A stretch of DNA of 64,000 bases from Microthyrium microscopicum. Lineage: Eukaryota. A program made the position numbers and the translations under genes. Below are positions 20,341-63,237 of the stretch, in pieces (within the stretch, counting starts at the first letter, position 1; each line of letters opens with the position of its first letter). Location of the stretch: positions 1,213,359 through 1,277,358 of the forward strand of contig MU004241.1 in NCBI GenBank assembly GCA_010405405.1, read 5' to 3'. The notes under the pieces were generated by a model that worked only from the letters and a program-made list of their open reading frames with translations, had not been told where the DNA came from and ran no database searches.

Positions 20341-21112
20341 GGTGAAGAATGTCGATTGCGGATTAGAAGTTGGGAGCAGAAAGTCTTGGTAGTGGAGTCG
20401 GTGAGTGAAGCAGGAGGCAGAGTTTTTATACTCTGGAGTGGGTATCCCAGAAGCTGAAAGGTTTGTAGTTCGTAGAGAAGAAGAAGAGAGGTAATGGGAG
20501 GATTGCAAGACAAGAAATCGCGCAGAGAGGCTACAGTACCGTACAATCAGTGGAAAGAGGAAATGTCTCGTCCAAGTCGAGTTACCTTACGTCAAGGCTG
20601 AAGATATCGCCCTGGTCAAGGAGGGGTGGATTTAAGCAGCGCTGCAGCTTTTACAGGGAAGCTTTCCTCACCAAAGCTCCACAGCTCTTTCAATCCACCA
20701 AAAAATATGCGGAATTACCCCCACTTGCTAATTATTTCCTCACGCCTGAGGGCAATTGGTCGCTGCCATCGTTGTGGGTTCACTGTTGCTCTTTCCTTGT
20801 TGAGTCACCCCACTCGCGTGGCTAGTGAGATGTGGCACGAAAAGCGCGATCAATTGTGGCGCTAGTAAATTTCCAAGGTTCCTCTAGTTCTGACTGGAGA
20901 GGGTCGGCAGCCAAATTCCTAGGATTTCGACTCTATATTTACTACAGATTTTCACTGTAGATCTACGCTAGAATTAGCCTAGCCCCTAACATCTTCTAAT
21001 ATTAAATTATAGAAACTACCCTTATAGTAATTACCCCTATAAACGTTTTTATGCTATAACTTTATAGTATTTCTATTAATAATCTACGCCCTAAAGCTAA
21101 AAATAGTCTAAA

Positions 21113-21875
21113 ATAGACGCTAATAAGAAGGTTCTAATCGTAGAAGTAGTAGTAATACTAATCTTAGTATTAGGGTATTATATTATAGTAGGATTCTTAT
21201 ACTAATATATATCTAGGCTCCCTATTAAATATATAAAGTTTAATTAGAGTCTTAAAAATATATTAGAGTCTAAAATATAGTTATAATATTAATATACTAA
21301 GAATTAGTATTAAAGAATACCTATAGTACTAATTAGTATATAATAGCTTTTTAAAGCATAAAATTAAGATATTATCTTACTTAATAAATCTTAATAATCT
21401 AGAGCTACTAAAGTAATATAATCCTTTAGAGAAAGGTTACTTCTTATTATATTTAGTCCTAATATAGCTATTCTAGAATTACTATTATTTTAATATTTAT
21501 AAACGCTTTAGTAGAAGTATAATATACCTAAAGGATTACTTTAATAAGACTATTAAATATCTTAACTTTAGATATTCTAAGTATCTAAAATTCTACCTCC
21601 TAATTACGCCTAAGCGCTACTAATAGTACTCTAAGATAATCTATTATAATAGCGATTAGGATATCTTTTAGAGTTATATTAATAGTACCTATATTAATAT
21701 TTTAAAGCTAAAGAGTTAAATCTAGAGATATTTATATAAGGGATATAAAGAGAAGCATAATTTAAAGTTCTAAGTAGTCTATTCTCTTAATAGAATAATA
21801 CTTACTATTAATAGTCTTTATCTAGGTATAATAAACAATCCTAGAATATTAATTTAATTAGACTTATTAAATTAT
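21113..21875 (+). pseudogene. Harbinger transposase, 5' part (RIP-mutated)
   Basis: Reversing C>T/G>A changes at 21663-21875 gives IFWGYIDGTHIDI.KP...QRHLYKGYKEKH.LKFQAVCSPDG...V.GPYPG..ND..ML..S.L, the Harbinger/DDE_Tnp_4 core. Confidence 0.8.
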
Positions 21876-22193
21876 TATTACGAACTCTTACAGACTTGCT
21901 ATAAAGGCGTAGATATCTTGCTATTTCCTTACTCTTTCTACTCTTATAGTACGTTATAGGAAGGCTTTTTGCTAGTAAACTACTAGGTTAATATAGATAG
22001 TACTTACTTTCTACTATAATAAGATAAAGTTAAATATAGCTAAGGATAAGAAGGAGAGGTAGCCTTATTAAAGAGAAGATAAAAAGGAGTATAAATAAAG
22101 GAGTAGACTTAATTTCTAAGAAGATTAAGTATTAATCTTATCTTAATACTAGTTTTTAAAATCTATTTTCTTTATTTTAAACTATCTTTTATA
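21876..22193 (+). repeat. 5' LTR of Ty3 element A
   Basis: Colinear with 37885-38202; the differences seen are transitions. TATA-like TATAAATA at 22090. Confidence 0.88.
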
Positions 22194-27891: not shown

Positions 27892-28053
27892 TGTTAGGGG
27901 TTAAACCCCCTAAAGCTATGCCTATTTAGGCTATCTCTATTATATATAAACACCTTAATTAAAGAGTTTCTTAACTCTTCTTTCTTTCTAAGTTATCTTC
28001 CTATTTAGTAGGCTTATAATATAACTTATCTTTTTATTATCTAACCTATAATA
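27892..28053 (+). repeat. 5' LTR of Ty3 element B
   Basis: Ungapped match to 35289-35450 with about 14 differences, all C/T or G/A. Confidence 0.92.
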
Positions 28054-31000: not shown

Positions 31001-34000
31001 CTATTTTTTAAAATATCTTAGATAATTACGTTTCTATATACTTAGATAATATCTTAATTTTTAGCTTAAGTACTAAGAAGTAATATAAGGCCTACGTTTA
31101 TAAAGTCCTTAAATAGCTATAAAAAGTAGAACTCTACTTTAATATCTAAAAGTATAAATTTATAACTACTTAAATAATATATCTAAGCTATATTATTAAG
31201 GCTAAATAAGAAATCTTAATAAATCTAGCTAAAGTTAAAGTAATTTAAGAATAAGAGACTTTTAAGAACGTTTATAGAGTTTAAGCTTTTCTTAACTTTA
31301 CTAATTTCTATTATAGGTTTATACTAAACTTTTAAATAATTATAGAACCTCTTATTTAACTTACCTAAAAGGACGTTCTCTTCTTATTTAAAAACTTAAA
31401 AAGAGCTATATTTAAGAAGCTAAAATAGTTCTTTATTACTAACTAAATACTAGCCCTATTTAACTATAATAAAGAAACTCTTATTTATACTAACTCTTTT
31501 AGTTACTCTTTAAGAGCTATACTAGTATAAAAAGATAAGATAAGTAAGTTTTAACTAATAGCTTATTTCTCTAAAAAGTATAACTTTACTTAAAGTAACT
31601 ACTTAATTTATAATAAAGAAATATTTATAATTATACTTACTCTAAAAGAATAAAACTTAGAGCTATAAGTAATAAAGAAGTTTAAAATAATATCTAATTA
31701 TAAGAACCTAGAGTATTTTATAAAACTATAGAAGCTTATAGAAAGGCATATCTAATAGTCTATTAAACTTATAAAGTATAATATAATAATTAAGTACTAA
31801 CTAGACCTATAGAATAGCATAGTAAATAGTCTCTTTTATTATAAATAAAATATACTTTAAGACGTAGCTAATAAGAAGATTTAAGCTAGAACTTTCTAAC
31901 TACTTTATACCTAAAAAGATTAATTACTTAAATTACTATAAGCCTTATTTATCTATATTATTACTCTTTTTATAGTAGTTAAAGATAAATTAGTAAAGAC
32001 TCTACTAACTAATAAAGCTTTAATTCCTAGCTTACTACTACTAATACTAAACGTCTCTAAACTATTAGTAATCTAGTAGAATAAGGTAGTATAAGCTAAT
32101 AATACCTATTAAGTAGCTTATTAAATAATTAAGGTTAGTAAATAGAAGTTTTCTCTATTAATTATAGGTATTAAAATCTTTATCTTTAACTACTTAATTA
32201 ATAGTAAGAATTATCTTTACTAAAAAGGATAACTATAGATTCTAAACTTAGAACCTTTATAGATAGTAATATTATAAGTAGCTTATATATCCTTAACTTA
32301 AAGCTATTCTAGCTATAAAGAAACTTACTAAGCTCTATAGCTATACTTCTTCTAGCTTAGAATTATAGCTAATATAAGACGTTTTATAAAAAATTATAAT
32401 ATATATAGCTAATTAAAGGTTAGTTATAAGTAGAAAAGAGGCTTCCTAAAGCTTCTACTTATCTTAAGCTAATAATAATAAGAACTATTTATAAATTTTA
32501 TAATAAACCTCCTTTTATTAAATAAATATATAATCTTAATAGTTATTACTAATTAGCTAAGTAAAGGAGTAATTCTAATTCCTTTTATTTAAAAAGAAGC
32601 TAAAGACGTTATAGCTATTTTTTTATAACGCGTTTATTTCCTTTATAGTATTTCTAACGTAATTATTTATAATTATAACTTAGTATTTATAAGAGACTTT
32701 TAGATAAGGTTTTATATACTACTATAGATAGAGCTATAGCTATTAATTATATTTTACTTTTAAATAAATAGCTTTATAAAATAGTAGAACTTAGATATTA
32801 AAGCTAAAATATAAATATATATAAATTATATATAATTAAACTAGTTCTTACTAATACTAATACTTTAACTTATACTTAACTTATAACGCTTATTTATAAT
32901 AAAATTCTTATCCTTTTTTTTATCTTATAGCTTTAAAAACTCTACTTTCCTAGACTTTTCTAAGTAAGCTCTTTTATTTAAATAAAAGGATACTTTAAAA
33001 GAGAGAGAAAAAGAAGCTACTTATATAATTTTAAAAGCTACAAAATAGACTTAAGATATTATAATCCTTACCTAAGAAAAGATATAAGAATAAGCTAACT
33101 AAATAAGAATCTAAACGTCTAAGTATAAAGTTAGTAATTAGGTTTAGCTAAACCTAAAGAATACTAAGACTAAATAAGTAAAGAAGAAGTTTAATTACTA
33201 TTACTCTAAGTTTTAAGTTATAAAGATAGTAAGCTTATATATAATTATACTAAATATACTATAAAAAACTAAGAAATTCTATATTAACCTACTTAGACTA
33301 ATAATAAATAACCTATTCCTAAGTTAAAATGCTAATAATTCTTATCTACTACTAATCTTAGTTAAGAACTTAGATAAAGAAAAATAAAAGAAGTAGCTAG
33401 TAGAAAAGATTATAGCTAAAAAATATAAGAAAATAATAAAGAGTAAATTCTATATAGTTTACGTTATTAAATAAATAAGTTATTTAGATATAATAAAAGA
33501 ATTAATTAACTTTATTAAATAGTTAGAAGCCTATATAAAGTAGATAAAGAAGATAAAGTATATATAAGATAATTATAAAAGATTAGTACTAAACTAATTT
33601 ATTCTTTAAATATAACTAAGATTAAAAACTAGCTTTCCTATTATAATAATTAACTCTATAGAGATATAATTAAAAGTACTATTTATAATTTACGTATAGA
33701 AATACTTTTCTTTTATTTATATTAAAACTCTCTTTCCTACTAAATAAAATTAAAAAATTATAAAAATATAAGAAAACTAAAGAAATAAGATATACCTAAT
33801 AAACTTCTACTATTAAGAAAGAAAAATCTAAGTAGTGCCTTAAGGTATAGAAAAACTAAAGTAAATAGTTAATAGTAGAAGATTCTTATTTTCCTTAGTA
33901 ACTTCCTCTTTATTATTATAAGGATACTTCTTACCTAAGCTAATATTATTATTATAGATATAGTTTAAATATATATTATTATAAAATCCTAGAAGCTAAA

Positions 34001-35288
34001 TATAACTAATATACTATAGCTAATTCTTAGAATTAGAATAGCTAATATAGTAAGTATAATACTACTTTTTATAAGCTTTAGTCTCTTTAAGTTATAGGAT
34101 ACTTATATAATAAATACTTAAGGCCTTAAGATAACTAGCTTAGCTACTAGTTAATTAAATCGTAGTAAAGATACTCTAATAAATTATAATACTATAAATA
34201 TTAAGCTACGAACTATTAGTAAATCCTTTAGAGAAAGCGTTTAATAAGTTAAGATAATTATTAGAGGAATTAGAAGGATAGTTAGCTATAGTATAAATAG
34301 CTTTACTCTATAAATATATTAATATAAATTAAGAAAAATAAAAGAAATATATATAGTCTAGTTAATATAAAGTACCTTAAATAAAGCATAGTTTTATAGA
34401 TTATAATAGTTAATAACTATATATACCTTCTTATAAATAAGAGTAATTAATAGATAAGGACTTAGATTATAAATAATATTATTTTAGTAATAAAGTAAGA
34501 CTTAAATAAAAGTATAAAAGCCTTTATTTATATTATTCTAGTAAGCTTTATATATAGCTACCTTATATATAGTAAGTAAATAAGGTTAAGGAGCATTATA
34601 ATTAGTAACGTATATATAAAGAGAAGCAATAGTAATAAGAATATAACTATTAAAGCTAATAGTATTATTAAAAGCGTTAATAATTAGGGTAGCTATCTTT
34701 ATATAGTTAGTAAGGCTATAGCTATTATAATAAATAACTTACTTAATTAATTAATTAATTAATAGATTAATTAATTAGGTAAGAAAAAAGAAACTTAATA
34801 AGGACTAATTAGAAGAGAAGAAGCTTATTTAAAGTATAATAAAGAAAGAATAGTTAACTTTATAGAATAATATTACTTTATACTCTCTAAATATATAAGT
34901 AGAAGTATAGTAACTTAACTATAGTTACGTTCTTTTAATCTTATTCCTTAATATTATAATAGAGCTCTAACTAAGTATAAATAAGACGACCTACTAATTA
35001 AGTAACCTTTATAGAATTATAACTAAAAAGAATTAATATTATATGCTAAGAAAGGAGCCTTATACCTAGAATTTAGTCTAAAATAGGTAAAATATTAGTA
35101 TAGAACTAATAGTTAATAACCTAAGCTTTATATTTTATACCTAAAAGTAAACGTATAAATCTATACGTTATAAATAGAAGCTTTATTATAAACTATAAGA
35201 ATAGTAAGCGTTAGACATAGCTAGATAAGATTAGAATCTTATAATTAACTTAGTATTTTAGCTAGAATTTTTTAGATAAAGGAGATAA

Positions 35289-35450
35289 TATTAGGGGTTA
35301 AACCTCCTAAAGCTATACTTATTTAGGCTACCCCTATTATATATAAATACTTTGATTAAAGAGTTTCTTAACTCTTCTTTCTCTCTAAGTTACCTTCCTA
35401 TTTAGTAGGCTTATAATATAACTTATCTCTTCGTTATCTAACCTATAATA
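35289..35450 (+). repeat. 3' LTR of Ty3 element B
   Basis: Matches 27892-28053; purine tract AGATAAAGGAGATAA upstream, TSD ATAGG downstream. Confidence 0.92.
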
Positions 35451-37884
35451 ATAGGTATAAAAAAAGAATAAAGATAGCTAGGATTAGTATTAATAAAATT
35501 AATACTACTATCTAGATTATAATAAGTAGTTATTCTATTAGTAGTATAATGCTACTAGAATTAGTAAAGAGAGTAAGCTACCTTATTAAAATATTAAGCT
35601 TAAGCCTAAGTAGCTAGTAATAAGCTATAGAATAGTAATACTATCTTATTATTAGACTATTTAGTCTATATACTACTTGCCTCTTTATTCTTAATTTTCT
35701 TTATAATAAATAGATATACTATAGAACGTAAAGTACTAATATTTAGAATAAATTTAAAAGATACGTAGGTTCTAGATATAGTAATATCCTTCTTATTTTA
35801 GACTAAAAGAGATAAGAAGTAGATATAAGAATAATTACTTTATATAAGTAGACTACTAGTAGATAAAGATAATAAAGGGTTATTAGTAGTAAGACTTAGC
35901 TCCTAGTAAAGATTAAGTAGTTTAAAGCTTTCTAGGTAGATTCCTATAGGCTAGATAAGTGCTTAAATTTATAACTAAGTATAGAATATAGATAGAAAAT
36001 AATTCTAAGAATAATAGTTAATAAAAGTATAACTTATAGATAAAACGCAAAAGAACTTATACTAAGACGCTAGATATTATTAGCTTACTCTAGCATATTT
36101 TTAATATAACTAAGTATAGTATAAATATAGAATACTATATCTAAGGCTATAAGATAGCTATAGCCTTTTAAGTAACTCTCTATATAATGCTAAGCTATAA
36201 TAGAAGTATTATACGTTTATTAATAATATATTAACTCTTTATTATAGATATAGTATATATTATTATACTAATAAAACTTAATAAAGAAACCTAAAGACGT
36301 AATAACTATAATAAAACTTATAGAATTAAGAGATATAAAATAGACGTATAAGTAGATTAAGTTATTTATAACTTTATTAAAGACTATAGGTACTTAAATA
36401 GAAGTTAGTACGTAAGCTATATCTAAGTTATTAATAAGATACTTATAATATTATAATAATACTTCTAGTAGGTATAGTAATAGTATTTAGTAAAGTTATT
36501 CTTATAACTATATATAGTATTTTATAGAATATAGCTATTATTAAGATAATAATAGACTATATTATTAATAATATTTTATAAATATTAGAAATAATATAAG
36601 AAGAGAAATAAAGTAGATATAGCTTAAGAGTAAGATATAATCTAAGTAATATTCTATAAAGGTATAAGTTAGTAAAAGAATTAGGCAAGTTACTTATAAT
36701 ATACTTACTACAAAGGCTTATTACTAAGTAGTTTAAGTTATAGAACCTAGATCTATATTTCTTAGCTTATTAAGTAAGTTATCTAACTTAGACTCCTTAT
36801 TCTCTAGAGATAATATATAAGGCAGCATAGAAGTACTTTAGTAAATAGTTTACTTCTTAATTATAAGATAAGTAGTAAGTAACTATAAAGGTTCTAGTAA
36901 TAGAGTATCCTTACGATAATGTTTTTTATTAGCCTAAGAAGTATAGGCTAGCTATAGAGTAGGTTTAGTAGTTAAGTTAACTATTATAATACTAGTAGGT
37001 ACTTAAATAAGGTAAATAAAGCTATTTATATTACGTTAGGCTAAATAAGAAATAAATAGTAGATTAATATTAGTAATAATATAACCTAAGAATAATAAAA
37101 CGTAAAGAGTTAATAAGCCTCTTTAAGGCTCTAAGAGGGTTATCTAGTTAGTAAGTTAGACTAAGTTATAATTATATAACTTAAGCCTCTTAAGGACACG
37201 CTAAAGACTTTATAAAGTATAAAGAGTAGTAGAATACTAGCAAGTTATATATTTAGAAGGTTAGCTATTTCGCTACTAAGACTATTAGAATTCTTAAAAA
37301 GTATAATATATTTCTAAGAAATAATTACCTAAGTTAAGATTAATTAACTACTTACTTTTCTACGAATTACTATTATTAATAAAGTTGTTATTATTAAAGG
37401 AATTAATATTAATAGGGTCTTAATAAAACGAACTACTACTATACGAACTACTAGAATAATAATAAGAAAATATTATAGAAGAATAATTAAAATACTATTA
37501 GAACGTATATTAAAAAGCTAAAAGTATTAAAGATAAGTAAAAAGAATATAAATAGAGTATAGAAAGAGTATAAGTTAAATTAAGAACTCTAGAAAGACGT
37601 AATTTTTAAAACTTTTAAAATTTTAAGTAAGTAATATATTTATAGATTGCTTATAAGAAGAAAAGGTTATAGTATTAAAGAAATAGAGTATTATAGTTTT
37701 AAAATATTTTAGTATTATATATATATATAATACTATTATAATAAATAGAGTTATTATTACTTATATAGTAAGTATTATAGTAACTTTAGAAGTAGGAATA
37801 CTATAGATTAAAACTATATCTACTAAAAAAGAAAGGCATAATAACTAAGTTATTAAGGGCGACTTTCTTTAGAAAAAAAGGCTT

Positions 37885-38202
37885 TATTATAAACCTTTAT
37901 AGACTTACTATAAAGGTATAGATATTTTATTATCTTCTTATTTTCTTTACTCTTATAGTACGCTATAGGAAAGCTCTTTATTAATAAACTACTAGGTTAA
38001 TATAGATAGTACCTATCTTTTATTATAATAAGACAAAGCTAAATATAGCTAAGAATAAGAAGAAGAGGTAACCTTACTAAAAAGAAAATAGAAAGAAGTA
38101 TAAGTAAAGAAGTAGACTTAATCTTTAGAGAGATTAAGTATTAGTTTTATCTTAATACTAGTTCTTAGAATCTATTTCCCTTACTTTAAACTATTCTTTA
38201 TA
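37885..38202 (+). repeat. 3' LTR of Ty3 element A
   Basis: Matches 21876-22193; preceded by purine tract AGAAAAAAAGG and followed by TSD ATTAT. Confidence 0.88.
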
Positions 38203-38207
38203 ATTAT

Positions 38208-38630
38208 ATTTAAATAATTAGTTAAAGTTATAAAATTATAAAGTTATTATAATATACTAACTTAGAATATAAATATTTAGTAACTACTAAAAATATATAC
38301 TTTATAGTAATGCTACTTATTCTTTAAATAAGCTAATAATAAGTCTATACTAAGGGAACCTTTTACTATACTAAAGGGATTTTAATAAAATAGCTACTAA
38401 AAAGTAAGTATTAATTAAGTAATATTTTAGTAAGATAAAAGGTTTATTTAAGAGAGGTACCTCTAATTATTATTTTAGTCTATAAATAAAATTAATGCTA
38501 GTTAGAGTATATATAATAGTATTATTCTTACTTATTAACTATATAATCTATTTTTATAAAAATATTATTAGTATATAATTTAAAATTAATTTACTAATAA
38601 TATATTAATATTTATATCCTAATAATATTA
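38208..38630 (+). pseudogene. Harbinger transposase, 3' part (continues after the outer Ty3 insertion)
   Basis: De-RIP reading LYGDAAY (GDAAY 38306-38320)...SPY.GNL...QRDFNK....KRVSIEQYFG..KGLF (E codon 38417-38419). Confidence 0.8.
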
Positions 38631-38884
38631 TACTACCTATATATTATTTAGAAGAGTATAGTTTAAATAATATAAAATAGTTATAGTATTTATTAAAGAT
38701 ATTAAAGTTATAGAGTAAAATTAAATATTCTTACTAAAGGAAGAAAAGTTAATAGAGTAGAGTTAGCTAATTATTTAATCTTTCTATATACTTTTAAAGC
38801 TTTTAGTATTTATTATAAGATTTATATAAAAACTATATTCTAACGCTACTACTAAATTATATAAAGAATATTAAAATACTCTTA

Positions 38885-38988
38885 CTAACGTCTATTACCT
38901 ATAAGACTCTTTAATAACTCCTTTATCTTTATTATCTTTAAGTATAATCTATTTACCTCTTTCCTTAAGCCTATAACTTTACCTTCTT

Positions 38989-39065
<77 letters not shown>

Positions 39066-39900
39066 ATATTATTATTATTTATAATACGCTATTTAATATT
39101 ATCTCTTTACCTAATCTTTTTATTAATATTAGCTAATATATTTATAGCTAAAGATATAATATTTATTATAGTCTTCTTCTTTATAAAGTAATTTTAAGTT
39201 CTATAGACTTAAACTAATTAATTATAAGCCTCTACTACTACTACTATATTATTAGTAGTAATTATAGGTTTAAAGGTTATTAGTAGAGTAAGTATTTATA
39301 CTAAAAGAGGAATTTCTTTAATATTTTTATTAGGCTAAGCTATATCTTTAGCCTAATTAGTTTATTCTTCCTTAAGACTATTAAAATTAATAACTAATTT
39401 ATTAGTAGGCTTTACTTCTACTATTTTATTCTTATTAATAATAATAAGAATATTAGTAAGAGTAGCTAGGAAGCGCTTCTTCTTACTTATTCCTATTGCT
39501 AAAGCGTCCTTTACCTATAAGGATTCTAAATAACCTACTTTAAGCTTCTCTTTAATAGCTTTTCTCTTCTTTAAATATGCTTTATAACTATTCTATACCT
39601 TAATAAAGCTATCTAAAGCTTATTAAGTTTTATTATATAGAATAGTATAGCCTAAGTATTTATTAATAACTTTATCTTACTATTACTTTATAACCTTATT
39701 AATAGCGCGCTTTAAAGTACCTTAAGAGAGTCTTTTATTAGGCTAAATACTAATTATAGTATAGAAGACTAAAATAGTTTAAATCTAAAATCTATCTATT
39801 TAATTTAATAATTAATTACTACTAGTATTACTATAAATATTATAGTTCTAAAGAGTATAATTTACTACTATATAAAAATTATCTTCTATCTATTTAATCT
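38885..39900 (-). pseudogene. Harbinger second ORF, putative Myb/SANT-like DNA-binding accessory protein (RIP-mutated, limits approximate)
   Basis: De-RIP frame FW..(n)..LKRAVDKVVK......E.SG......QQALDSFIEVW, ending in a coiled-coil-like LRKEVDGL...ELLKSL. Convergent to the transposase, inside the TIRs. Confidence 0.5.
38989..39063. repeat. (TAC)25 microsatellite inside the Harbinger second ORF
   Basis: Uninterrupted TAC run, read directly. Confidence 0.92.
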
Positions 39901-40826
39901 TATATCTTTAACTTATAGTTAAAGTATTAAATATAGCTAAAGCGTATTCTATACTAAGAAGTAATATATATATATTTTAAATAATAAGATATTAATAAGA
40001 GTAGAATTAAGCTATTAATATTAAGATACCTAAATAATTACTTATTAGCGCTAATTCTTAAAGTAATTCCTAGTACTAATCTTTAAAAAGCTAAGATTCC
40101 TTAACCTACTAGTTTTAAGTATATTATAAGTAATTCTAAGTTAATTCTTAATTCTAAGCTTCTTAAATTTACGTACTAGTTATTACTATATTACTTTAAG
40201 ATTTTTTAAAAGATTCTAATAGTAATAAAGAGAATAATATTAATTTTATTAGTAACTCTATTAGTATAGAATTAATATTAGCGTAAGCTATTAAATATAT
40301 ATATAGAAATTAAGTAATTTAGGTTCTTAGTATCTTTACTAATAAAAGATATAGATTTAAATAGTATAATATTATTATATTTAGAAAAATAAGAATATAT
40401 AGTCCTTTAATATCTATAATATTTATAATAACTTAATATTAACTTAACCTTAGCGCTATTCTAAAATAAGTTAATTATAAGTTAAGATAAGAAGTAAAAG
40501 TAGAGTATAAGTTAATTTTACTTAGTAAAAATAACTTTTACTCTTTTGCGCGCTATTCCTATTTAAGGAGTAAAAACGCCTTCTGAGTACCCTTGGATCG
40601 CGATCCGAGGGTACTCCAAATGGCCTGCCGACCCTCTCCACTAGAAGGTGCGGGACACATCTGGGTCATTCTCAACACCAACCACTTCACCAACTCCAAA
40701 TTCTCTCCATATATATCTCCAGCTTGGGCTCATTCAAGTAACACTCCATTTCCTACACACAATTTGAACCCTATACCAATCCGCAACCCTTATTACTCCA
40801 GTCACATAGAGCACAAACCCTTAAGC

Positions 40827-52950: not shown

Positions 52951-53421
52951 GATGGTTGATTTGTGCGGTTGATGTGTTATGATTTTTGATGTGTTATGAG
53001 TTATGGTTGGATGATGAGGCTGACTGACTTGATATAGTGGAGTTGGGGAAGATGCAGAAGGAACATCCGGCTGTGAGGGCGGCGAGGGCACAGGCGGCTG
53101 CTGAGGAGGCGGAGAGGAAGGGCGGTAGTGAGAGTGCTGGATGAGTGAGAATGAGGAAGGGGAAGAGAGTGTGTATAGGTGTAAGATTCTTGTATAATTC
53201 CATCTCTACTACAAATAGGTCTCACCAGGCATCGGTGCCGTATACTCTACATCCATCATAATGCTATATAACTACAACGAGTCATTCTATCGTGGGGCGG
53301 ACAATTGTCAACGCTATGCTTTACGTCTCTGGTATCATGCAAAACCCAACCCACGCCAACGCCAAATCCAATCATACAGTCGATCAACATACTCTCAAGT
53401 TCCAAATGTGAAGGCCTTGTC

Positions 53422-55856
53422 CTACAGGCCAGTGCTCTTCTTGCGTAGCAACATGCCTCTCGTCCCGCTAATGTCAGCCTCCGGTGATGCAGAGGGAATG
53501 CTCGTGCGATGAAAATGTCGTTTATAACGTCGCTCAGCCTCGCTCATTACCCCTTGAGCCGCGGCCGGCTGCTCGGCGACCATGGACGTACTCATAGTAA
53601 GACTAGGCAGTGCTGCGTCCGCGGGCGTAAACGACCATGCCGACATGCGACGGCTGCTAGCGAGCGGAGTTGTTGGCTGACTCTTAAAGGGAAACAACGA
53701 CCTGCTCGGCCAAAGCTCTGGGGCAGCAGGAGGATCAGGAGACTCGAGATCCGACGGCGAGTAAGATCGCGGATTTGAGCCGCTCGAGTCGTACGCTGGC
53801 TCTTGAGGCCTGGTGCGACGTCTCTTTGGTCTTCTAAGACTCAGATAGTCATCATCTTGCTCTTCACCTTCCGATTCGCCGCCAGTAACGGTGACGGAGG
53901 AGTCTGTGTCGGGAAGCTGTTCCTCAAGTCGATAATGCGAGGAAAAACTTGGCTTGTCGCTACGAGGGTCTACACACCATGATTTCGTCTTTGTTCCCCT
54001 CTGTTGGATAGTTTTTGAGCGCAGTGACAGTCCATTGTGTGTAGATGGCTCAAGGGACAGGAGGCGTAGATCCACTTGACTTGGACTGAAGGCAATATGC
54101 GCTCTTAACTTTTGAACCGCACTGTCAAGAGCTAATTCGATTGCGCAATGATTTTGAATGCGTGATAATTTTGGCCATGTCGCTCTCTGTCCGCACAGCA
54201 CTGCTTTCATCATAAACTCTGGTGTTGGATTCGTGAGAATTTTGGGTAATTGCGAGTACGAAATCTCTGGAAGAATGGTGATGTCTCCAGAATACTTTTG
54301 ACTGAGAACTGATCGTAGTTTTGTAAGGTAGTTTGGAAGAACACCAAGCTCCGTCAAAACGTGCATTCTATGCAAAGCCTCACTTTTTGCCAAACCTGCA
54401 AGTGTACTAAACCAACCAACAGTAGGTCCTGTCATGTCGCTGGATGCCTCCTTAGTGGCACTCTCCGCCATAGTTTCTTCTCCAATAAGGAAGGGAACAA
54501 CATGAGGGTTGACTTGTGATACGAGAAAGTGGTTGACGTTGAACATTTCAGCCAGTCTGGTCATGGGAAGATCATTGTCAACAGAGCCATCAATCCAAAG
54601 TTGCTCTGAAGGGTTCCAGCGGACCTCAGATCCATCACGAGGGTCCTTGGCAAGTATTGTAGCGGGAGAAAAGACCAGGGGTACCGAACATGATGCTGCG
54701 ACAGCTGACCAAATTATGACATTGGGGGCAGTAATGTAGTTGAGTAGCCTGGGTAGTTCATGCAGACTCGCTGTGCTGACAGAAATGTTTAAAATTCTCC
54801 TCGTCCGATTGTATGCTTCTTGGAAAGTAAGGTCACCCAATAAGTCCTTGAGAACCTTTGTTAGATGCTGAATGTCGAATAAAGCTCCGTATTTGGCAAA
54901 TCTCGCTGCTTTCTGAAGCACAGTCTCCTTAGCGCCGGTCTTCTCGAAAACGTCAAAGTCTGCATAGCAAAGCTCTCTGATAGTATCAGGGATCTCTGCA
55001 TCGGTTTTCGCGCAGAGTACTGCAGAAATAATGGACCCTGCTGAAGCACCGCACACAATTCGTGGTAACAGGTCCCTTTCCCAAAGAGTTTTGACTACAC
55101 CAATATGTGTCATTCCAAAAGTGGCTCCACCGGACAATAGCAAAGCACTTCTACCAAAGGATTGGCGAGTTGCTAGGAGTTGATCAAGTGCATTTCGACA
55201 GTCGTATTCTGACTCTTTTGCGGTCGCAATTGACTTGAGCAGGGCGTCTAGCGTATTGCACGCAGTCGAAATATAATCTTCTATCAAGGATTTGGTACCA
55301 ACATGGGAGTACTTGTACAAGTGTAGATCTCCCATATTACCGAGCGATCGAGTGAGCGAAGTCCGAAGCAAGAACAGAATGCGCCTAGGGTCGCCGGATA
55401 TTCTTGCATCTTCGAGTTGGTTCAAACGCGCTTGTAAGAGATTGTAATCATAGAACGGAGACGCTGGATTGGATTTCCAGGCATCATTTCCTTCTAGGCG
55501 GTCTAGTTCGAGGGCAGTCTCATGCCATGTAGAGTAGTCTTCAGCCTATATCCCAGTTAGCGTCACATGTCGAAAAGCTTCGGAGTTCTTACATCTTTCA
55601 TGCGATGCTCCAGTAGTAGCTTTCTGCCTTGGAAGTCGCTAGTTGTGGTTTCTGATAACACGTTCTTGTTGGCGCCGACCCAGAAGCTTTCCAAAGCCTC
55701 CTCAATTGAACCAGCTGGATCGCGGACCAGCCGCAACAAGGGTGCTACAAAGCTAGCATGGCTCTGAGCTTTCCTGAGCCTTTTATCTGGCTTTAAAATG
55801 CCTTTCTTGGGATGTGTGGTTGAGGAGGATAGCAGAGCATTTGATTGTAGTGGCAT
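53422..55856 (-). CDS. Patatin-domain triacylglycerol lipase, Tgl4/Tgl5-like (intron ~55546-55592)
   Basis: ALLLSGGATFG, GASAG nucleophile, WIDGS catalytic Asp, NVNHFLVSQVNPH; N-terminal AEDYSTWHETALELDRLEGN. Confidence 0.9.
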
Positions 55857-57088
55857 TGCCACAAAGGCGCCATGCGTTATGGGCAAGTGTAATTGGCGGT
55901 GATATCATGCGCACACAGGGGTTTCGCCAGGTACAGCGTAAGGTTTGGCCGAGGTCGCAATGCGGGAGGTATAGAGGCGTGTAGTAGTTATAAGGGTATG
56001 TATTGAACGCGGTGAGGATGGAAAGAGGAAGACTGAGGACTCTTGTTGGTATATGTGGAGGGTAGGAATATGTAGCAGCTGATAGCTCGGGTAGAGAGGG
56101 TGGAGAGGGTATATGGAGAACAGGTAGGATAATAAGGGACGAAAGAAATGGCGGGATAAGAATCATAAGATACAGTACGTAGAGTTGACATGGGATTCAG
56201 CAACCAGTAAGGGGAGGGCAGTCGCCAGTTGAGAGGTTAGGGAGGGATGATGATGTTGGCGCGGGTGTCACGCGCAGTGATGAAAGAAACAATCGGCACT
56301 CTGACAACCAACACAATCTCCAACTTGGCTATATTCGGTTTAAAAGATCTTCTACAATCTTTATCAAACGACTTTGCATCTTCGATTCACTGTTGGGCCT
56401 ATAAATCCGCAGTCGGAGTACCATCTCCGCCAGCATCACTCTCAACATAGCGTGTAGCCGGCGGAGCCGCATATCATGATTCAATTAGAATCGTGGCCAA
56501 ATTCCGCGGTCAACGGTACCTGTGACACCGCCCTGCCAGTTCTTAGAGTCCAGAGCAATGGGTCCGGTCCATGTGGTCTGACTACCCTCATCCATGCCCA
56601 GATACCTACTCGGCCGGTGGTAGCAAGTCACTAGTACTGCCGGCTTTCATTCTACAGTCGCTGCCGACATTGCTTTCTCCCCGGATGACCACATTGACTC
56701 GAGCGAGACGTCAAATAAAGAAGCCAAGGACGATATTCCTCTTTCAAATGCTTCAGACTCCAGAGAAACTGTGGAAAATACTCAAAGTCCCGCGTTAGGC
56801 GACTTGCCGAAGTCCTTTAGCTCTCCATGTGGCGTTGACCATGTTCACGCGACACTGCGACAGTACGGATACGCCAACGGCAGTTTTGTTCCCGTTTAAC
56901 TGTCGGTACAGGACTACAGGTTAAGTATAGACATGAAAGTACTAAAGTAGTAATATACACCATTATACACCAAGCGCTTGTTTTAGCGTCGTGTCAGATC
57001 TGTCAAAATCCCCTTCTGTCTCAACTTCACATGCTTACAGAAATACCACCACCTGGGCTCATGACCTTCTTCACACCACCAATATCAA

Positions 57089-59059
57089 TCACATCTTTTC
57101 TCCAGATTTGAAAGAATATCCCGGTGGCTTACGCTCAAACCCATCAAGTTCCACTCGTTCATTGTAATCAGTCGGCATCTCTATTGGCGAATCACTCTCC
57201 AGTTCCGGAATGGGACTTTGCAGCTCTGTGATGGGACTGCCCTCAATCTCGACCTTTTCATAAGCCATAGCTTTGCCTTTCTCCCAGAAACCGCTATTGC
57301 TGTCTGGCATTTCCACTATAGTCGAATTGGACGTCTCATCTCCCTTTTCCAATGGTCCTGCCGCGGCTGCTGCTCTCTTCCTTCCATGGAGCCAGAATAT
57401 GCATCCGCCGATTATCATCAGTACCAAACTCATCACGCCCACCGCAATGCCTATTTTAGCACCCATGGTCAAGCCTGCTGAGCCATTTTCAGTTGGGTAT
57501 CGCGGTCGTGGGCTTGCGGTGATAGCCCCTATTCCTAGCGGGCCGGCCATCTCAAGCAAATCTTTGCAGTCATCTGGAAGATGTTGCGGTGTTCTGACCA
57601 AGCCCTTTGATGCTTGGCAGACCTCTGCGTCATGCTTTGCTTTGTATTGCTGATTGATTATCCAGGAGCCGCGTTCGGTGGAGTTGCATCCGCTGAAAGT
57701 GCCGTATTCTCCTTTGAGCGTGTCGCCCTGTGCTCCTAGACACCATGTCGCATTTTGAGGGCAGACGGATTGTACGATATGACGCTCCTCTGGATTCGTA
57801 ATGTCTTTTCTTACCGAACTATCTGGCTTGTATTCGTATCCGCGATTAAAGCTGTGTGCTGCACTGCATTCCAGTGATCTCATAAGGCATCTACAGAGTC
57901 TCTGGTCTGGCGTTGGAGGAAGATTCGTCGCGAACTGGATGGTTTCTATAGTTTTCAAGACTCCTGCTACTGTCGTTCGCGTCGGTATGGGTATCGTCGT
58001 GGCGCACGCTGACCGTGAAAATTTGGGCGGGGAATATTCTCCCATACTGGGTTCATCACTTGTCTGGTTGGCTTTTATCAAGATATCGTTGGTAAGGCTC
58101 GTGAACTCTGGGCGTAGTTTGACTGTGTTTCCGCTGATTTCGACCAGGCCTGTATCACTGTTAGTTCAAAAGCAGAACCAAGTGGTATCAGTGATCCTTA
58201 CCAGTGATGTTATCTCGATTATCATCAAAGTACTCAAAAAGAAAGCCTCCAGACATGCCCTTCTTCCCTTCCGGTGTTGCGAGAGCATGCATCAACTCGA
58301 TATTGGTTTTATTTCTGGCGTTGCAATTTGCGCCATATGCAAACATCGGCACCGGATAGTCTGCATTCTGCCTTACTACATCCTGGATAGATTGCTCCCG
58401 TTCTGACGTGCCTTCACACACCGTGTTGATATTGAGCGCCAGAAAATCTATAGAGGCTTTGGGCTCTCCACAGACAAGATTCTGGTAGAACTCCGCCCCA
58501 TAGTTCTTTGTCAGATATCCGATAGGAACTCGTCCCCTTGGTGAGTCCTTCAGATGTTGTTTCAAATCGCGAATCGCGGCTTTGACGTATGGCAGGGTAG
58601 CCGGACTACCAGTGATGAAGAATCCCAATAGGTTCGTAAAGCCTTTCAGATTGTCGACGACTGCGGCGTATCGCGAATACATGTCCCGGTCCCATGTGTG
58701 CGTGTGGTATATCTGTTCATTCGGTCGCATCAGTCCTGCCAGCACGTATATTCCCGCCTCTTGTAATTGTTGCATGCATGGTGAGTGATCTGCTTCCGGT
58801 CGGAGCCATTGGACTATTATGCTGTTGATGCCGAGTTTCTTGAGATATTCGACATCGCGCGCGCACTGCGGCGCATCGTCGAGGGTATCTGTGTATGCGA
58901 GACTGTTTGCGAGGGAGAGTCTATCGTCCTGGTACTCTATGCCTTTGATAAAGAATCGTTTGCCCGACTTTTCGTAGAAAAATTGGGAGCCCTGTATCCG
59001 TTAATTGCCAGTTCAAGCGTTGAGTTTTCCCATAGTACCTTGATAAGTATAGGCTCCAT
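57089..59059 (-). CDS. GH72 (Gas/Gel)-like protein with X8/CBM43 domain, TM helix and cytoplasmic tail; catalytic Glu residues absent (2 introns)
   Basis: MEPILIK/GSQFFYEKSGKRFFIKGIEYQ, CARDVEYLKKLGIN, DHSPCMQQLQEAGIYV, MSGGFLFEY, GLVEI, Cys-rich X8 (LCRCLMRSLEC...GEYGTFSGCN), TM GAKIGIAVGVMSLVLMIIGGCIFWL. Confidence 0.8.
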
Positions 59060-59836
59060 AACATGTTTTTATCGAATGGCGTGCTGTAAGTGTTCATTCA
59101 TGTATTCATATCCTTAGCCTGGGGGTAGTTGCTCATGGTGGGATTTGCGCTAATGATGCTCAGGCTTTTTGGAAAGGACGGGCTTCATCATCATATCTAG
59201 GTGGTTGGTTCTCGCCGCATTGATGATCACGATCCTCGTTCAGATATTAACTTAATATAGCACGCCATGTTCCTGCCACGCATTACTCGGTTTGGATTAA
59301 TGAGCTGTACCCCACTCTGGATTCGCCCGACCTTTTGTTGCGACGGTTTTATCCTGGTTTTATTACTTGTCACCGCCTGTGTATATCTGGGGAACTGGTG
59401 CTCCGTTCCTGGTAACTTGGCGAGAGGGCAAAACGCGCACATTTCACTGCTCATTCATCATCTGTATCGACTGCATATGTTCTGTGAGAAAGGCTTCATT
59501 CGATTCGGAAATAGTTTGGTCGTTCACGAGTTAGCTCTAATGGTGAGCTACAGAAACTTGATCAGAACCTAGTCACTGCAATATAAAATCTAAGATATGC
59601 ACGCATGATGTCTGTTTTCGGACTTTATTATAGCGTAGTTCCTACTATAACTGGCTGCTCCGTGAAATTGCACTTTTACTCACTCGTATTGATTATAAGT
59701 CTCCGTAAAGTCAAGAATAGTATAAGTGCCTAAAAATTGCTTTGCGGCCACCAACGAGGATTTAGAATTATTATGCTTAATGCTGAATGCGTTTAAGGAA
59801 TTAGGATTTGTAGCAGTCGTTTCACTTGAAGAATGG

Positions 59837-60871
59837 CTAGTAGCCATCATAATAATAGTTTCTTCCTCCATCTCGCCTCCCATTGTCGTTGTGTCTACCA
59901 GATCCATCTCGTCTTCCTTCATCACGTCTGCCAGAGCCATCTCTTCTTCCTTCGTCCCGTCTGCCAGATACATCTCGTCCCCCTCGATCGTCTCTGGCAC
60001 CGTGTCTATTGTCTGATTCATGCGAGCGACAACGATCATCTTCTCTCCGTCTGCTAGGTGACAAACCTTCACAGTACGAACGAGCGCACGCAGGATCGCG
60101 AGCCTGCTCCCTCGAAGATTTGCTATCACAGCTCCCGCTTTGGTAACCGCCGGATCCACGACTTCCGCCACTGCTGGATGGTCCTTGGCCTCGAGTACCA
60201 CCACCGTTACTTCCTTGACCACGGTCCCCACTTCCACTTGCAGGTGCATGGGGATTACCCTGTGCCTTGGGCAGTTGGGTTGAAGGCTGTTTGGGTCCTG
60301 CGGTTATACATGATTTTATGTCGCAATCGCCTTGCGCTGCAGGCTGCTTGCCGCCCATAGTCCTTGGAGTTGCAGCTTCCTTGGGTCCATGGGTTCCTTT
60401 GGCCCTAGGCAACGGGCTGGCCTGTGGTGATGAAGTGGGCTGCGACCCTCGAGGTGGTGGAGGTTGGTCTGCGCTGGACTCGATACGACTTAACGCTTGT
60501 TTTTCCTTTACAGCTGGAGCTTCCTTTTCTTGAACCGATTGTTGCTCCGTCACTACTGATCGCCTCCTATCGATAGCATTGTTCCCTTTCGTTGCTTTCG
60601 GTCGGCAAGATTTTATATCGCAATCGTCCAGTGCGTTTGGTGATTTCGCTCCTTCCTTCTTTGAGCTGGTGGACTTTGGACCCGGTAAACTGGTACTTTT
60701 AGGAGATGTGTGGCTGATTCCCTTCGGTGGAGGCAATTCGACTCGACTCGATTTATGTTTCGGCTCGTCTATTTTCCATTGCTCTAATATGCCCCTATCC
60801 TTCACAGAAGCAACGCCAATCACTGCGCCAGTAATGACTGAAGGAAGCAGAAACCACAATAGCGACCGCAT
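59837..60871 (-). CDS. Putative secreted low-complexity protein with repeated DCDIKSC motifs and R/D/G repeats
   Basis: Signal-peptide-like MRSLLWFLLPSVITGAVIG in a long uninterrupted frame with internal repeats. Confidence 0.6.
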   Translation of the reverse strand: MRSLLWFLLPSVITGAVIGVASVKDRGILEQWKIDEPKHKSSRVELPPPKGISHTSPKSTSLPGPKSTSSKKEGAKSPNALDDCDIKSCRPKATKGNNAIDRRRSVVTEQQSVQEKEAPAVKEKQALSRIESSADQPPPPRGSQPTSSPQASPLPRAKGTHGPKEAATPRTMGGKQPAAQGDCDIKSCITAGPKQPSTQLPKAQGNPHAPASGSGDRGQGSNGGGTRGQGPSSSGGSRGSGGYQSGSCDSKSSREQARDPACARSYCEGLSPSRRREDDRCRSHESDNRHGARDDRGGRDVSGRRDEGRRDGSGRRDEGRRDGSGRHNDNGRRDGGRNYYYDGY

Positions 60872-63237
60872 GGTGAAGTTACACAACCTCGGAAAATAAA
60901 CGAATGATGTAAAGATTACTATTTCATACCGCCCCCAAAGCAGCGTGGCATCCAAGTTTAAGTTCTCGTGGGCCCATCTCGTCGGTCAACAAGCCTAGGA
61001 TCACCTGGCCGGAATTTTCCCCGGCTGAAGTGGCCAATTTAAAAGAATGAGGATTTGCTCTCGGTTCCCCATATGCGTGGTCGATGGGTGGGATAGATTA
61101 CTCCTCAATCCGCCCTGACATATATTAAGGTACGTACCCCTAGAGAATTTCCTTAAGATACAATCATTAAGATTCTTTTTTTGTAAATGCGGGGAAAGAG
61201 ATACAACACAAAAATAGTACAGATAGTATGTTTGAAGTATGGGGTTCTCGACCAACGTATAGGCCTACTTGCTGCTGTCAATCTTCATACCGAAAGCTGG
61301 CAGTATCTGTCTGCTCTAGCCTCTACATAGCACCCATAGTAAGCATCGAAGATTCAGGCAAGATGCTAAGCAATGCTGCTATCTATTTGATTAACAAATA
61401 ACGGAAGATTACGAAAGTATCCAGACACCGCGTCTGTACGAGCAGGCAGATGGTTTCTGAGAATACTACAAGGTACAAAGCTTGAGTTTACTTCGATTAA
61501 TGAATTACATGCAGTGAAGATTGGCCACGTTCGGGTTATCCATTTTCGTAGATTCAAGTTCACCGTCAGCCATACTTCACAAAGTTGTCATTGGTATATT
61601 CAGATCAACGACTGTTCACTGATTTGGGAAGCGAGAAGGCTTTGACCACATACCATCATGTAAAGATTAGGTCTCTATCTCTTCTACCATCTACTGAAAT
61701 CAGATATCGATTGCTGAACACCTAGAAGTATACCTTAAAGTACATACAGAGAGAAATTCTGATTGGATACCAGTGTTATACGACAAAAGCTTGGGTAAAG
61801 TAATTTCCGGACGATCAGACCTGTAAAATGGACTCGGTATCGATTTTGGTCACTGAGCGAAAGCTTGGATCTTTGTCGATCTACAGGCTACTCGTGGTGC
61901 ATTCCATAGCAGTCCAAATGTTGATTGGAAGCGGGAACTGGTATCATTTCTTTATCAACTGAATGGCATATGTCCTTGCTTCTAGGCCTCCTCCTGATTT
62001 TCACGGCAGAAGTTCGAAGCGTTGAAAAGCTTGACGGACTGTGTTCGCATGATCACTGCAGCTTGTAGTCCTTTGTGACGATGTGACCCGTGAGTACAGA
62101 AAAGGCGAATAAACCACATGGTTCAAGCGTACCTGGGTATGGTGGCAGGTCGGGGGCGCATAGAACTACCACGCTATCGGATGCACCACGTTATGTCTAG
62201 TTTTGTGTTATGAAAGCAAATCCATAAAATGAGATCTTAATGATATAAAGTCATGCTTGCTTGCAAACATTGACTCTTTCGTGGTGCTTTCTACTATATC
62301 AGACAAGTGTTATGCTTGTCTGAAGCCTGAGCATTTGACAGCTATTGCATAATGCGTATTTACCCAAAGCTCAAATATTCTCAGTACGCTTTCACTTTGT
62401 TGTGTTTTCCTCAGCAGAACTTCTGGACTCTGATCTTCGCATCTTTGTGATGATGACATCCGGTCAATAGTCTGCATTCCATACGCCTTACTTACTATTG
62501 CTTGATCCCGATACTAGACATGCTAGTCAGTATTTTCATGCTGACCGAACTAAACCTAATAGCTTTGCTGATCTTGAGACCTTTTTGCTCCCTTTTCTGA
62601 GCTCTAGTTGGTGGATTAGCGAGGGAATAATTTTCCAATTGGACACGTCACAGAGGACTTTCCATTCAAGGATGATATGTAGCTTCAGGTACTTGCTGCG
62701 CGCCTTTTTGAGGATGTCTGAGTAAATAGAAGCTTTGTGGCCATCTCAACAACTTTCAATATCATGATACGGGATACTGAGGAAAAGATACATCTGATGG
62801 TCCTGCAAGCCTCTGTTCTCTCATCAGTTTATGTTCTCAAACAAGCCCCAGGCCATGTATACCGATGACTTCACATACCAGAATGCACTTATTCCTCATT
62901 ATCGGAGTGTCATGTGTATCGTGATACTTGTAACTTGGAGTAGGCCTGCCACATGGCTTCAAGCTTCAATGCAACTGCCTTCCCTAGATCACAAAGTGGT
63001 TAGAGCAACTTGAACACTTGCAAACTAGTAGACGCGCTGCTTCCATGCGACAGACTCGTGGTTTAATAGAAGGCACGAACGAGTTTTAGTTGCAAGCTGA
63101 ACATGCTCCCAATCATGTTTCCTTCAACTAGCCATCCTGCATCCTCTAGAATACATCACTCGCGAAATCAAATTTCATCCTAAACGACCTTGACCATACC
63201 TATTCCATCCACTGAAAAGCCTTTATACTCAACAATC

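What the first reader, a model, noticed from the sequence alone, without database searches (positions are those of the whole stretch)
57089..59059. Catalytically dead GH72-X8 protein rebuilt as a transmembrane receptor-like molecule (candidate beta-1,3-glucan sensor)
Established: GH72 glucanosyltransferases use two glutamates, in GFFAGNEV and FSEYGC, and are usually GPI-anchored. Seen: the first motif reads GFFITGSP (~58601-58626) with the following loop shortened, and the second reads MFAYGANC (~58320-58345), so both Glu are lost. The barrel motifs, X8 cysteines, splice sites and frame are intact. Instead of a GPI signal there is a TM helix, a basic stop-transfer (HGRKR) and a ~100-aa acidic cytoplasmic tail with repeated E-L/M motifs (ELQS, ELES, EMPT, ELDG) and a terminal PPGY. 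Inference: a pseudoenzyme that binds wall or host glucan and signals inward.
Basis: partly seen in the sequence, partly recalled or inferred. Interest (0 to 1): 0.72.

Follow-up and report, generated by a model that had tools for sequence, protein, structure and literature searches.

The report
Dead membrane-anchored GH72, leaderless copy
This fungal gene encodes a copy of a cell-wall glucan-remodelling enzyme that has lost its catalytic and sugar-gripping residues and carries a membrane helix with an inner tail, a form shared by many sac fungi, but this copy has no export signal and was covered by an opposite-strand RNA, so its role as a glucan sensor is doubtful.

Summary
A three-exon, 623-codon minus-strand gene encodes a GH72 barrel plus X8 domain, one transmembrane helix and a 99-residue acidic tail; both catalytic glutamates are gone. 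It is no one-off. Of 33 membrane-anchored GH72 relatives, 24 have neither Glu, 5 have one and 4 have both. This genome holds five such genes, one with both Glu. Trees favour membrane anchor first, catalytic loss afterwards and more than once (AU p=0.0035).

(1) The sugar-binding groove is eroded too: this copy keeps 1 of 12 groove positions but 14 of 14 cysteines. (2) Similar acidic E-L tails sit on unrelated membrane proteins in this genome. (3) This copy has no signal peptide, and the one RNA run shows a spliced antisense transcript across it with the sense introns unspliced.

Best reading: a non-catalytic wall-membrane tether or receptor-like family that I did not find described; this copy is silent in the sampled condition or recently disabled. 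Ligand and signalling are untested.

The parts
59039..59059 (-). Exon 1 (MEPILIK), matching the 'DPIxIK' that follows the signal peptide in relatives; no signal peptide in front; in-frame stop five codons upstream
58992..59038 (-). Intron 1, 47 nt, GT..AG, at the IK|G position also used by the C1 and C10 paralogs and by L028; not spliced in the RNA contig
58202..58991 (-). Exon 2: GH72 (beta/alpha)8 barrel
   Evidence: Pfam PF03198 178.6 bits; Foldseek to Gel4 8pe1, TM 0.85 by target
58602..58625 (-). Degenerate acid/base motif GFFITGSP; Asn-Glu pair lost, following loop about 7 residues shorter
58323..58346 (-). Degenerate nucleophile motif MFAYGANC; Glu replaced by Gly, Cys kept
58150..58201 (-). 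Intron 2, 52 nt, GT..AG; not spliced in the RNA contig
57614..57811 (-). X8/CBM43 domain (Pfam stretch); cysteines intact
   Evidence: PF07983 29 bits; 14 of 14 conserved Cys kept over barrel, linker and X8
57389..57460 (-). Single transmembrane helix, followed by HGRKR
   Evidence: hydropathy 2.55; helix 796-830 in the AlphaFold model of P0001; coordinates
57089..57388 (-). 99-aa acidic, predicted disordered tail with family motifs (VEMPD for KAELPD; EIEG; EMPTDYNERVELD for ELPTxxNEPVEL) and the stop codon
57065..59579 (+). Spliced antisense RNA across the whole gene; introns 58092-58147, 59086-59163 and 59204-59260; longest ATG frame 116 aa; its contig begins 106 bp from the end of the patatin-gene contig
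   Evidence: joints GT..AG on the + strand, depth about 150, in run X1; splice signals and frames
59837..60871 (-). Separate upstream ORF (344 aa; signal-peptide-like start, P/S/G-rich, then R/D-rich repeats) that the public gene model P0001 fuses to the GH72 gene through 61-nt and 907-nt introns; fusion not seen in RNA

Best explanation
The gene belongs to a lineage of GH72+ (barrel plus CBM43) proteins of filamentous ascomycetes that first swapped the GPI anchor for a transmembrane helix and an acidic E-L-repeat tail while still enzymes. Duplicated copies then lost catalysis, on several occasions. SHOWN: architecture, loss of both Glu and of the surrounding groove residues, intact fold and disulfide pattern, conserved tail motifs, Glu-retaining membrane-anchored relatives. 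INFERRED: family members work as non-catalytic type I membrane proteins. The disulfide-locked ectodomain sits in the wall as a binding or tethering module, and the tail handles sorting or contact with the cell interior. If glucan is bound, the CBM43 part is the likelier site than the old groove. For this copy: it was under selection for most of its history, but now has no signal peptide and is overlaid by antisense RNA, probably from the neighbouring patatin promoter. It is therefore either switched off in the sampled condition or recently disabled. My odds: no catalytic activity 0.95; family functional as non-catalytic membrane proteins 0.8; this copy reaches the cell surface 0.35.
For: Both Glu are lost with no acidic substitute at the aligned columns, whereas 35 of 35 GPI-type controls keep both. 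In 29 Glu-deficient membrane forms, 12 groove positions are kept at a mean of 0.12 against 0.64 for 98 other conserved columns; this copy keeps 1 of 12, 67 of 98 and 14 of 14 Cys. The barrel plus X8 folds confidently (370 residues at pLDDT 90 or more) and matches Gel4/Gas2. 128 of 150 listed exon-3 relatives have a TM helix and a tail of 40 aa or more; 95 of these 128 carry the K-x-E-L type motif (alignment). Named full-length members come from Pleosporales, Venturiales, Helotiales and others, with up to four in one species. Membrane-anchored forms with both Glu exist: P0187, P0009, P0090, P0163 and a C2 gene in this genome. This copy's 9-member dead clade (100/99) is sister to P0187+P0097 (88/96). 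One clade for 22 Glu-deficient rows is rejected, p-AU 0.0035. 14 membrane-type database proteins that include the first exon have a signal-peptide-like start, as do L028 and the C1 paralog.
Against: No binding, localisation or knockout data exist. The tail is not specific to this family: similar E-L-rich tails follow the TM helix in most of 11 other loci read from this genome, so it does not show signalling. The tree backbone is weak (81/44 for the wider membrane-type group, which also holds one GPI row) and branches are long. P0097 is C-terminally partial, so its anchor is unknown. The RNA evidence is one run, kept as contigs that drop rare forms. Leaderless starts also occur in P0021, P0009, P0138, P0168 and the C17 paralog, which a purely 'recent damage' view of this copy does not explain well.
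Confidence: 0.55

Rival explanations
1. One reading: the protein binds beta-1,3-glucan in the old active-site groove and signals inward as a wall or host-glucan sensor.
For: Type I membrane layout with basic stop-transfer and a conserved tail; intact barrel and CBM43. Wall sensors of the Wsc/Mid/Mtl kind are type I membrane proteins (PMC5753161, passage seen).
Against: The tyrosine triad, the Asn before the acid/base Glu and the lining arginines named for Phr2 in PMC5753161 are lost here and vary freely in the family. No signal peptide. No Mid2/Wsc-type tail match of weight: Mid2 hit 1 of 20 members at E 0.23; Atlas hits for TM plus tail were all under 0.9. No sense transcript seen.
Confidence: 0.15
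2. This copy is a young pseudogene: it lost its signal-peptide sequence, is shut off by antisense transcription and has not yet gathered stops. The family at large may still work.
For: No route to a signal peptide through exon 1, because of an in-frame stop five codons upstream. An out-of-frame ATG lies 5 nt upstream of the start. Only antisense-spliced RNA was seen. The C1 paralog is frame-broken and the C17 paralog has a stop two codons before its VENIIIK, so turnover of copies is real.
Against: The open frame, 14 of 14 Cys and the tail motifs are kept over a terminal branch of about 1.0 change per site. Retention of conserved columns (0.66) lies within the family range 0.51-0.86. The C10 paralog shares the same MEPI start. 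Antisense RNAs over working genes are common in filamentous fungi (PMC6094484, passages).
Confidence: 0.3
3. The leaderless start is old and functional: this subclade lost the signal peptide long ago and still reaches an oxidising compartment by another route, or works in an inverted topology.
For: MEPILIK here and MEPITIK in the C10 paralog both follow an in-frame stop five codons upstream, although the two are over 2 changes per site apart by path. Both have long branches, and this copy keeps all 14 conserved Cys. Two Helotiales models also start without a signal peptide.
Against: From general knowledge (recalled), a 500-residue N-terminal domain is not normally translocated by a late signal-anchor. 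The Helotiales and Patellaria starts may be incomplete gene models. Hydrophobic short frames lie upstream of the C10 and C17 paralogs and could be missed exons. The 5' ends of the closest outside relatives are not available (P0027 and P0020-P0034 are unspliced gene calls).
Confidence: 0.12
4. The public 920-aa model (P0001) is right: the upstream ORF supplies a signal peptide and a 300-aa low-complexity stalk, giving a signalling-mucin-like receptor.
For: It would supply the missing signal peptide. The model is in NCBI/UniRef and is reproduced exactly from GT..AG joins.
Against: It needs a 907-nt intron from a weak GTAGAC donor and skips the homologous MEPILIK exon. RNA contigs run unspliced through its first intron (59927-60893, no gap) and across its second donor (59791-59951), at depth 2-6. 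The upstream ORF is open to its own stop, has no paralog in the genome, and no listed relative has such an extension.
Confidence: 0.06
5. The protein is still an enzyme, using relocated acidic residues.
For: Acidic residues exist elsewhere in the barrel. I could not inspect the model's coordinates to exclude one entering the cleft.
Against: Even Glu-to-Gln changes abolish activity in this family (PMC5753161). Eleven of 12 groove positions are changed and no replacement is shared in the family.
Confidence: 0.03

Closest known systems
GH72+ beta-1,3-glucanosyltransferases: A. fumigatus Gel4 (PDB 8pe1/8pe2), S. cerevisiae Gas2 (2w62, 5fih), C. albicans Phr1/Phr2
   Same: Barrel plus linker plus CBM43/X8 fold (TM 0.78-0.86 by target), disulfide pattern (14 of 14 Cys), 24-28% structural identity.
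   Different: Both catalytic Glu, the tyrosine triad and lining Arg/Asn are lost; TM helix and 99-aa tail in place of a GPI signal; no signal peptide in this copy.
Inactive or anomalous GH72 members of yeasts (S. cerevisiae Gas3; C. albicans Phr3, Pga5), as reviewed in PMC5753161 (passages and a reference title seen)
   Same: GH72 proteins reported as inactive or without phenotype.
   Different: In the passages seen they are not described as Glu-less single-pass membrane proteins with a cytoplasmic tail.
Wsc/Mid2/Mtl1 wall sensors (PMC5753161 passage) and Msb2-type signalling mucins (recalled)
   Same: Type I membrane layout: outer wall-facing part, one helix, short acidic inner tail.
   Different: The ectodomain is a folded dead enzyme rather than a Ser/Thr-rich rod or WSC domain; no significant tail homology; no link to Rom2/Rho1 or MAPK tested.
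Membrane-anchored GH72+ with both Glu (P0187, P0009, P0090, C2 gene of this genome)
   Same: Same TM plus E-L tail layout; P0187 is in the sister group of this copy's clade.
   Different: They keep the catalytic pair and evolve more slowly (P0187 end branch 0.3 against 1.0 here).

Membership tests
GH72+ glucanosyltransferases (Gas/Gel/Phr) | GH72 (beta/alpha)8 domain | tested here: met
   PF03198 178.6 bits; Foldseek E 1.8e-35 to Gel4
GH72+ glucanosyltransferases (Gas/Gel/Phr) | CBM43/X8 domain and conserved cysteines | tested here: met
   PF07983 29 bits; 14 of 14 Cys
GH72+ glucanosyltransferases (Gas/Gel/Phr) | Two catalytic glutamates | tested here: not met
GH72+ glucanosyltransferases (Gas/Gel/Phr) | Three conserved active-site tyrosines (PMC5753161) | tested here: not met
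   Gln, Asn and Phe at the three columns
GH72+ glucanosyltransferases (Gas/Gel/Phr) | N-terminal signal peptide | tested here: not met
   hydropathy and upstream-exon enumeration; no dedicated predictor was available
GH72+ glucanosyltransferases (Gas/Gel/Phr) | C-terminal GPI signal | tested here: not met
   hydrophobic helix followed by about 100 polar residues
GH72+ glucanosyltransferases (Gas/Gel/Phr) | Transglycosylase activity | not testable with these tools
   needs an assay
Wsc/Mid2-type wall sensors | Single TM helix with cytoplasmic tail | tested here: met
   (topology inferred from the basic HGRKR)
Wsc/Mid2-type wall sensors | WSC domain or Ser/Thr-rich rod; Mid2/Wsc tail homology | tested here: not met
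   no such Pfam match in this protein; Mid2 in 1 of 20 relatives at E 0.23; Atlas leads under 0.9
Wsc/Mid2-type wall sensors | Signalling to the cell-wall-integrity pathway | not testable with these tools
   needs genetics
Membrane-anchored Glu-deficient GH72+ group (no description found) | GH72+X8, TM helix, K-x-E-L / E-L-P-T tail, Glu loss | tested here: met
Membrane-anchored Glu-deficient GH72+ group (no description found) | Single origin of the dead state | tested here: not met
   0% of 200 bootstrap trees with one change; p-AU 0.0035
Membrane-anchored Glu-deficient GH72+ group (no description found) | Expressed, spliced sense mRNA for this copy | tested here: inconclusive
   one RNA run as contigs: antisense splicing only

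The most novel reading that the evidence does not exclude
Filamentous ascomycetes repeatedly turn a membrane-anchored glucan transglycosylase into a fast-diversifying set of receptor-like pseudoenzymes. Each paralog has its own rebuilt groove on a fixed disulfide scaffold and a shared acidic tail, so they could form a variable surface-recognition family for wall damage, host or non-self ligands. This copy would be held off by a spliced antisense RNA until needed, and its subclade may reach the surface without a classical signal peptide.
Probability: 0.17. Interest if true: 0.8.

Novelty: new variant of a known kind. Interest (0 to 1): 0.5.

Why it matters
These proteins are annotated in public databases as active 1,3-beta-glucanosyltransferases, so GH72 counts in many Dothideomycete and Leotiomycete genomes are probably inflated. 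If the group is functional, it adds a class of wall-facing single-pass proteins beyond Wsc, Mid2 and Msb2. It also offers a graded series (both Glu, one Glu, none) for studying how an enzyme becomes a binding or tethering protein. This copy is a poor model for experiments; a signal-peptide-bearing member is better.

Tried and rejected
Literature. Five searches for such a protein found no description: 6 papers, 5 listed; 0; 36, 15 listed; 0; 3, 2 listed. For these I saw listings and abstract starts only; the library lacks most subscription papers, so absence is weak. Searches did not return the Gas2 or Gel4 structure papers, so some groove positions (R105, D132, D217, W246, Gas2 numbering) are my choice from column conservation and recall. 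One search (species name; 22 papers, 15 listed) showed nothing on this gene by title or abstract start. PMC5753161 and PMC6094484: search passages only.

RNA and loci. One search listed no holder on record as RNA; the single run proved to be RNA by its splice joints. The metagenome scan gave 13 loci from 158 candidate stretches; only L028 matched into the TM/tail region and it is not a close relative, so the 5' end of close orthologs stays unknown. The bacterial promoter scan is irrelevant to a fungus and was not used.

Sequence and structure. The second protein search with alignment A1 returned mostly ordinary GH72. dN/dS was not computed because no relative is closer than 39% identity. No complex prediction was run.

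Rows left out. P0001, P0008, P0170 and P0171 from the 161-row set; P0018 from the TM count (a near-copy of GPI-type P0015, probably a read-through model); 29 of the 70 rows from the 41-row careful tree, for run time, among them the longest branches. P0148 counts as 'both Glu' in the fast alignment but 'one Glu' in the accurate one; I use the latter. The AU group was defined by residues, but after I had seen two earlier trees.

Full report
Observation. The minus strand carries a three-exon gene, 59059-57089, with GT..AG introns of 47 and 52 nt and an open frame of 623 codons. Exon 2 matches Pfam GH72 at 178.6 bits and exon 3 matches X8 at 29 bits. Against Gel4 and Gas2, GNEV has become TGSP with about seven residues deleted after it, and SEYGC has become YGANC. 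One hydrophobic helix (residues 503-521) is followed by HGRKR and a 99-residue acidic tail. The gene sits in ordinary 45-50% GC sequence without a RIP signature. A named database protein, P0001 from Microthyrium microscopicum, is 100% identical over exon 2.

Fold. AlphaFold2 on P0001 with a 141-row alignment gave 370 residues at pLDDT 90 or more, in the barrel and X8 region, a helix at the TM segment and a disordered tail. Foldseek ranks Gel4 first (E 1.8e-35, TM 0.85 by target), then Gas2. I could not read the coordinates, so the absence of a substitute carboxylate rests on alignment.

It is a family. Exon 3 finds 226 representatives at E 0.001 or better. Of the 150 listed, 128 have a TM helix and a tail of 40 or more residues, and 95 of those 128 have a K-x-E-L type motif. 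The tail motifs KAELPD, EIxG and ELPTxxNEPVEL are conserved, and this copy keeps recognisable versions. Among 161 GH72 proteins of 440 aa or more, 34 have TM plus tail; 124 of the other 127 keep both Glu. In the accurate alignment, 33 membrane-type rows split into 4 with both Glu, 5 with one and 24 with none. Named members include Lophiotrema (4), Amniculicola (2), Dendryphion (2), Zopfia, Trematosphaeria, Karstenula, Lojkania, Macrophomina, Aulographum, Tothia, Rhexocercosporidium and Cadophora, many labelled as glucanosyltransferases. This genome has 12 GH72 loci by my grouping of 21 matches. Five are membrane-type: this one, C10, C17, C1 (frame-broken) and C2, the last with both Glu.

Order of events. 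In the careful IQ-TREE tree (41 rows, 448 columns) this copy groups with the C10 and C17 paralogs and P0027 (100/99), inside a nine-member dead clade (100/99) that includes Tothia. Its sister is Glu-retaining P0187 plus the partial Rhizodiscina P0097 (88/96). The Pleosporales dead forms are a separate clade (99/97). No bootstrap tree of 200 makes the Glu-deficient rows one group, and the AU test rejects it (p 0.0035). The C2 gene joins P0187+P0097 with modest support (86). Different members lost different Glu first. The inference is membrane anchor first, repeated loss of catalysis later. The backbone is weakly supported and branches are long, so a single origin of the anchor is not shown.

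Against the glucan-sensor reading, first point. PMC5753161 (passages) names two Glu, a tyrosine triad, an Asn and lining Arg/Asn residues at the GH72 active site. At 12 such positions the 29 Glu-deficient membrane forms keep the residue at a mean of 0.12, against 0.64 for 98 other conserved columns (Mann-Whitney p 2.8e-6; columns and rows are not independent). No replacement is shared: the commonest substitute at any of the 12 is found in at most 6 of 29. This copy keeps 1 of 12, but 67 of 98 others and 14 of 14 cysteines. A lectin that kept its old ligand would be expected to keep the groove; here the scaffold is kept and the groove is free. That fits either relaxed constraint or diversifying ligands.

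Second point. A search of the genome with the TM and tail returned 15 other places at E 0.1 or better. Of 11 read, most are unrelated single-pass proteins (aspartyl-protease-like, CFEM-like, small Cys-rich; labels by eye, not from a call) with similar acidic E-L tails; 8 of 11 have three or more E-L/M motifs in their last 200 residues. The tail is a general module whose role is unknown. Pfam and the Atlas give no real match for it.

Third point, specific to this copy: no signal peptide. The start Met sits where relatives' mature chains begin, an in-frame stop lies five codons upstream, and no upstream acceptor can join a leader to exon 1 except through a rare GAG. Fourteen membrane-type database proteins with a complete first exon have a signal-peptide-like start; P0021, P0009, P0138 and P0168 do not. 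The C10 paralog starts MEPITIK after the same kind of stop, and C17 has a stop two codons before VENIIIK. The public model solves this by fusing an upstream ORF through introns of 61 and 907 nt. RNA contigs run unspliced through the first of these introns and across the donor of the second, so I reject it.

RNA. One public run covers the region. It is RNA: the patatin neighbour's intron is skipped with CT..AC ends at depth 652. Over our gene, at depth about 150, the joints are GT..AG on the plus strand (58090/58147, 59085/59164, 59202/59260), and neither sense intron is skipped. The skipped pieces have proper plus-strand donors, branch-like sites and acceptors; one removes 56 nt of sense coding sequence; the spliced RNA has no ATG frame over 116 aa. 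Its contig starts at 57065, 106 bp from the end of the patatin contig at 56959, which suggests a bidirectional promoter. Antisense and divergent lncRNAs are common in Fusarium (PMC6094484, passages). Contigs drop rare forms and this is one condition, so sense expression is neither shown nor excluded.

Is it decaying? A neutral frame of this length stays open in 4.3% of simulations at 5% divergence and 0.15% at 10%, yet the terminal branch is about 1.0 change per site. Retention of conserved columns is typical of the family. Selection acted for most of that branch; if the gene is dead, it died recently.

Verdict. The anatomy is real and belongs to a multi-species group for which five literature searches found no description (open-access library only). 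Earlier notes of this scan already flagged two other such genes of this genome and a lichen gene; those are leads, not support. New here are the order of events, the eroded groove, the generic tail, the missing leader and the antisense RNA. Most likely the family acts as non-catalytic wall-membrane tethers or receptor-like proteins (0.55 for the full statement). This copy being a young pseudogene 0.3; groove-based glucan sensing 0.15; old functional leaderless form 0.12; fused model 0.06; active enzyme 0.03. These overlap in part and do not sum to one. Novelty: new variant of a known kind. Interest 0.5.

Noticed in passing
window 57065-59579, + strand: Spliced antisense RNA with three introns over the whole GH72 gene, apparently diverging from the patatin gene's promoter region.
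   Followed up: yes
window 53036-56959, - strand: Patatin/DUF3336 lipase gene. Its RNA contig reaches about 1.1 kb upstream of the likely ATG at 55856 and that leader holds several upstream ATG frames.
   Followed up: no
window 59837-60871, - strand: 344-aa ORF with a signal-peptide-like start, DCDIKSC repeats and an R/D-rich repeat end; no Pfam hit, single copy in the genome, weakly covered by RNA; fused to the GH72 gene in the public annotation.
   Followed up: partly
window about 21000-40500: 19.5-kb block of about 20% GC with extreme RIP-type dinucleotide indices; probably a dead repeat island between the pyruvate kinase and ABC transporter genes.
   Followed up: no
L041:1249-3338 (G000 C2): Membrane-anchored GH72+ gene with both catalytic Glu and an acidic E-L tail; the likely enzyme-like counterpart of the dead paralogs.
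   Followed up: partly
L009:201-932 and 1333-3436 (G000 C17): The C17 dead paralog lies directly downstream of what reads like a chitin synthase C-terminus (by eye).
   Followed up: no
L016:3115-4195 (G000 C1): The C1 paralog has a signal peptide but changes frame within the linker.
   Followed up: partly
L013:2245-2783 (G000 C14, about 932 kb): A further GH72 locus appears fragmented: short open pieces with the nucleophile motif kept.
   Followed up: no
L017-L027: Many unrelated single-pass proteins of this genome, including several aspartyl-protease-like ones, end in acidic tails with repeated E-L motifs; the motif's function is unknown to me.
   Followed up: partly
window 9133-10899, - strand: T5orf172/MUG113-domain protein next to a DHX29-like helicase gene.
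   Followed up: no
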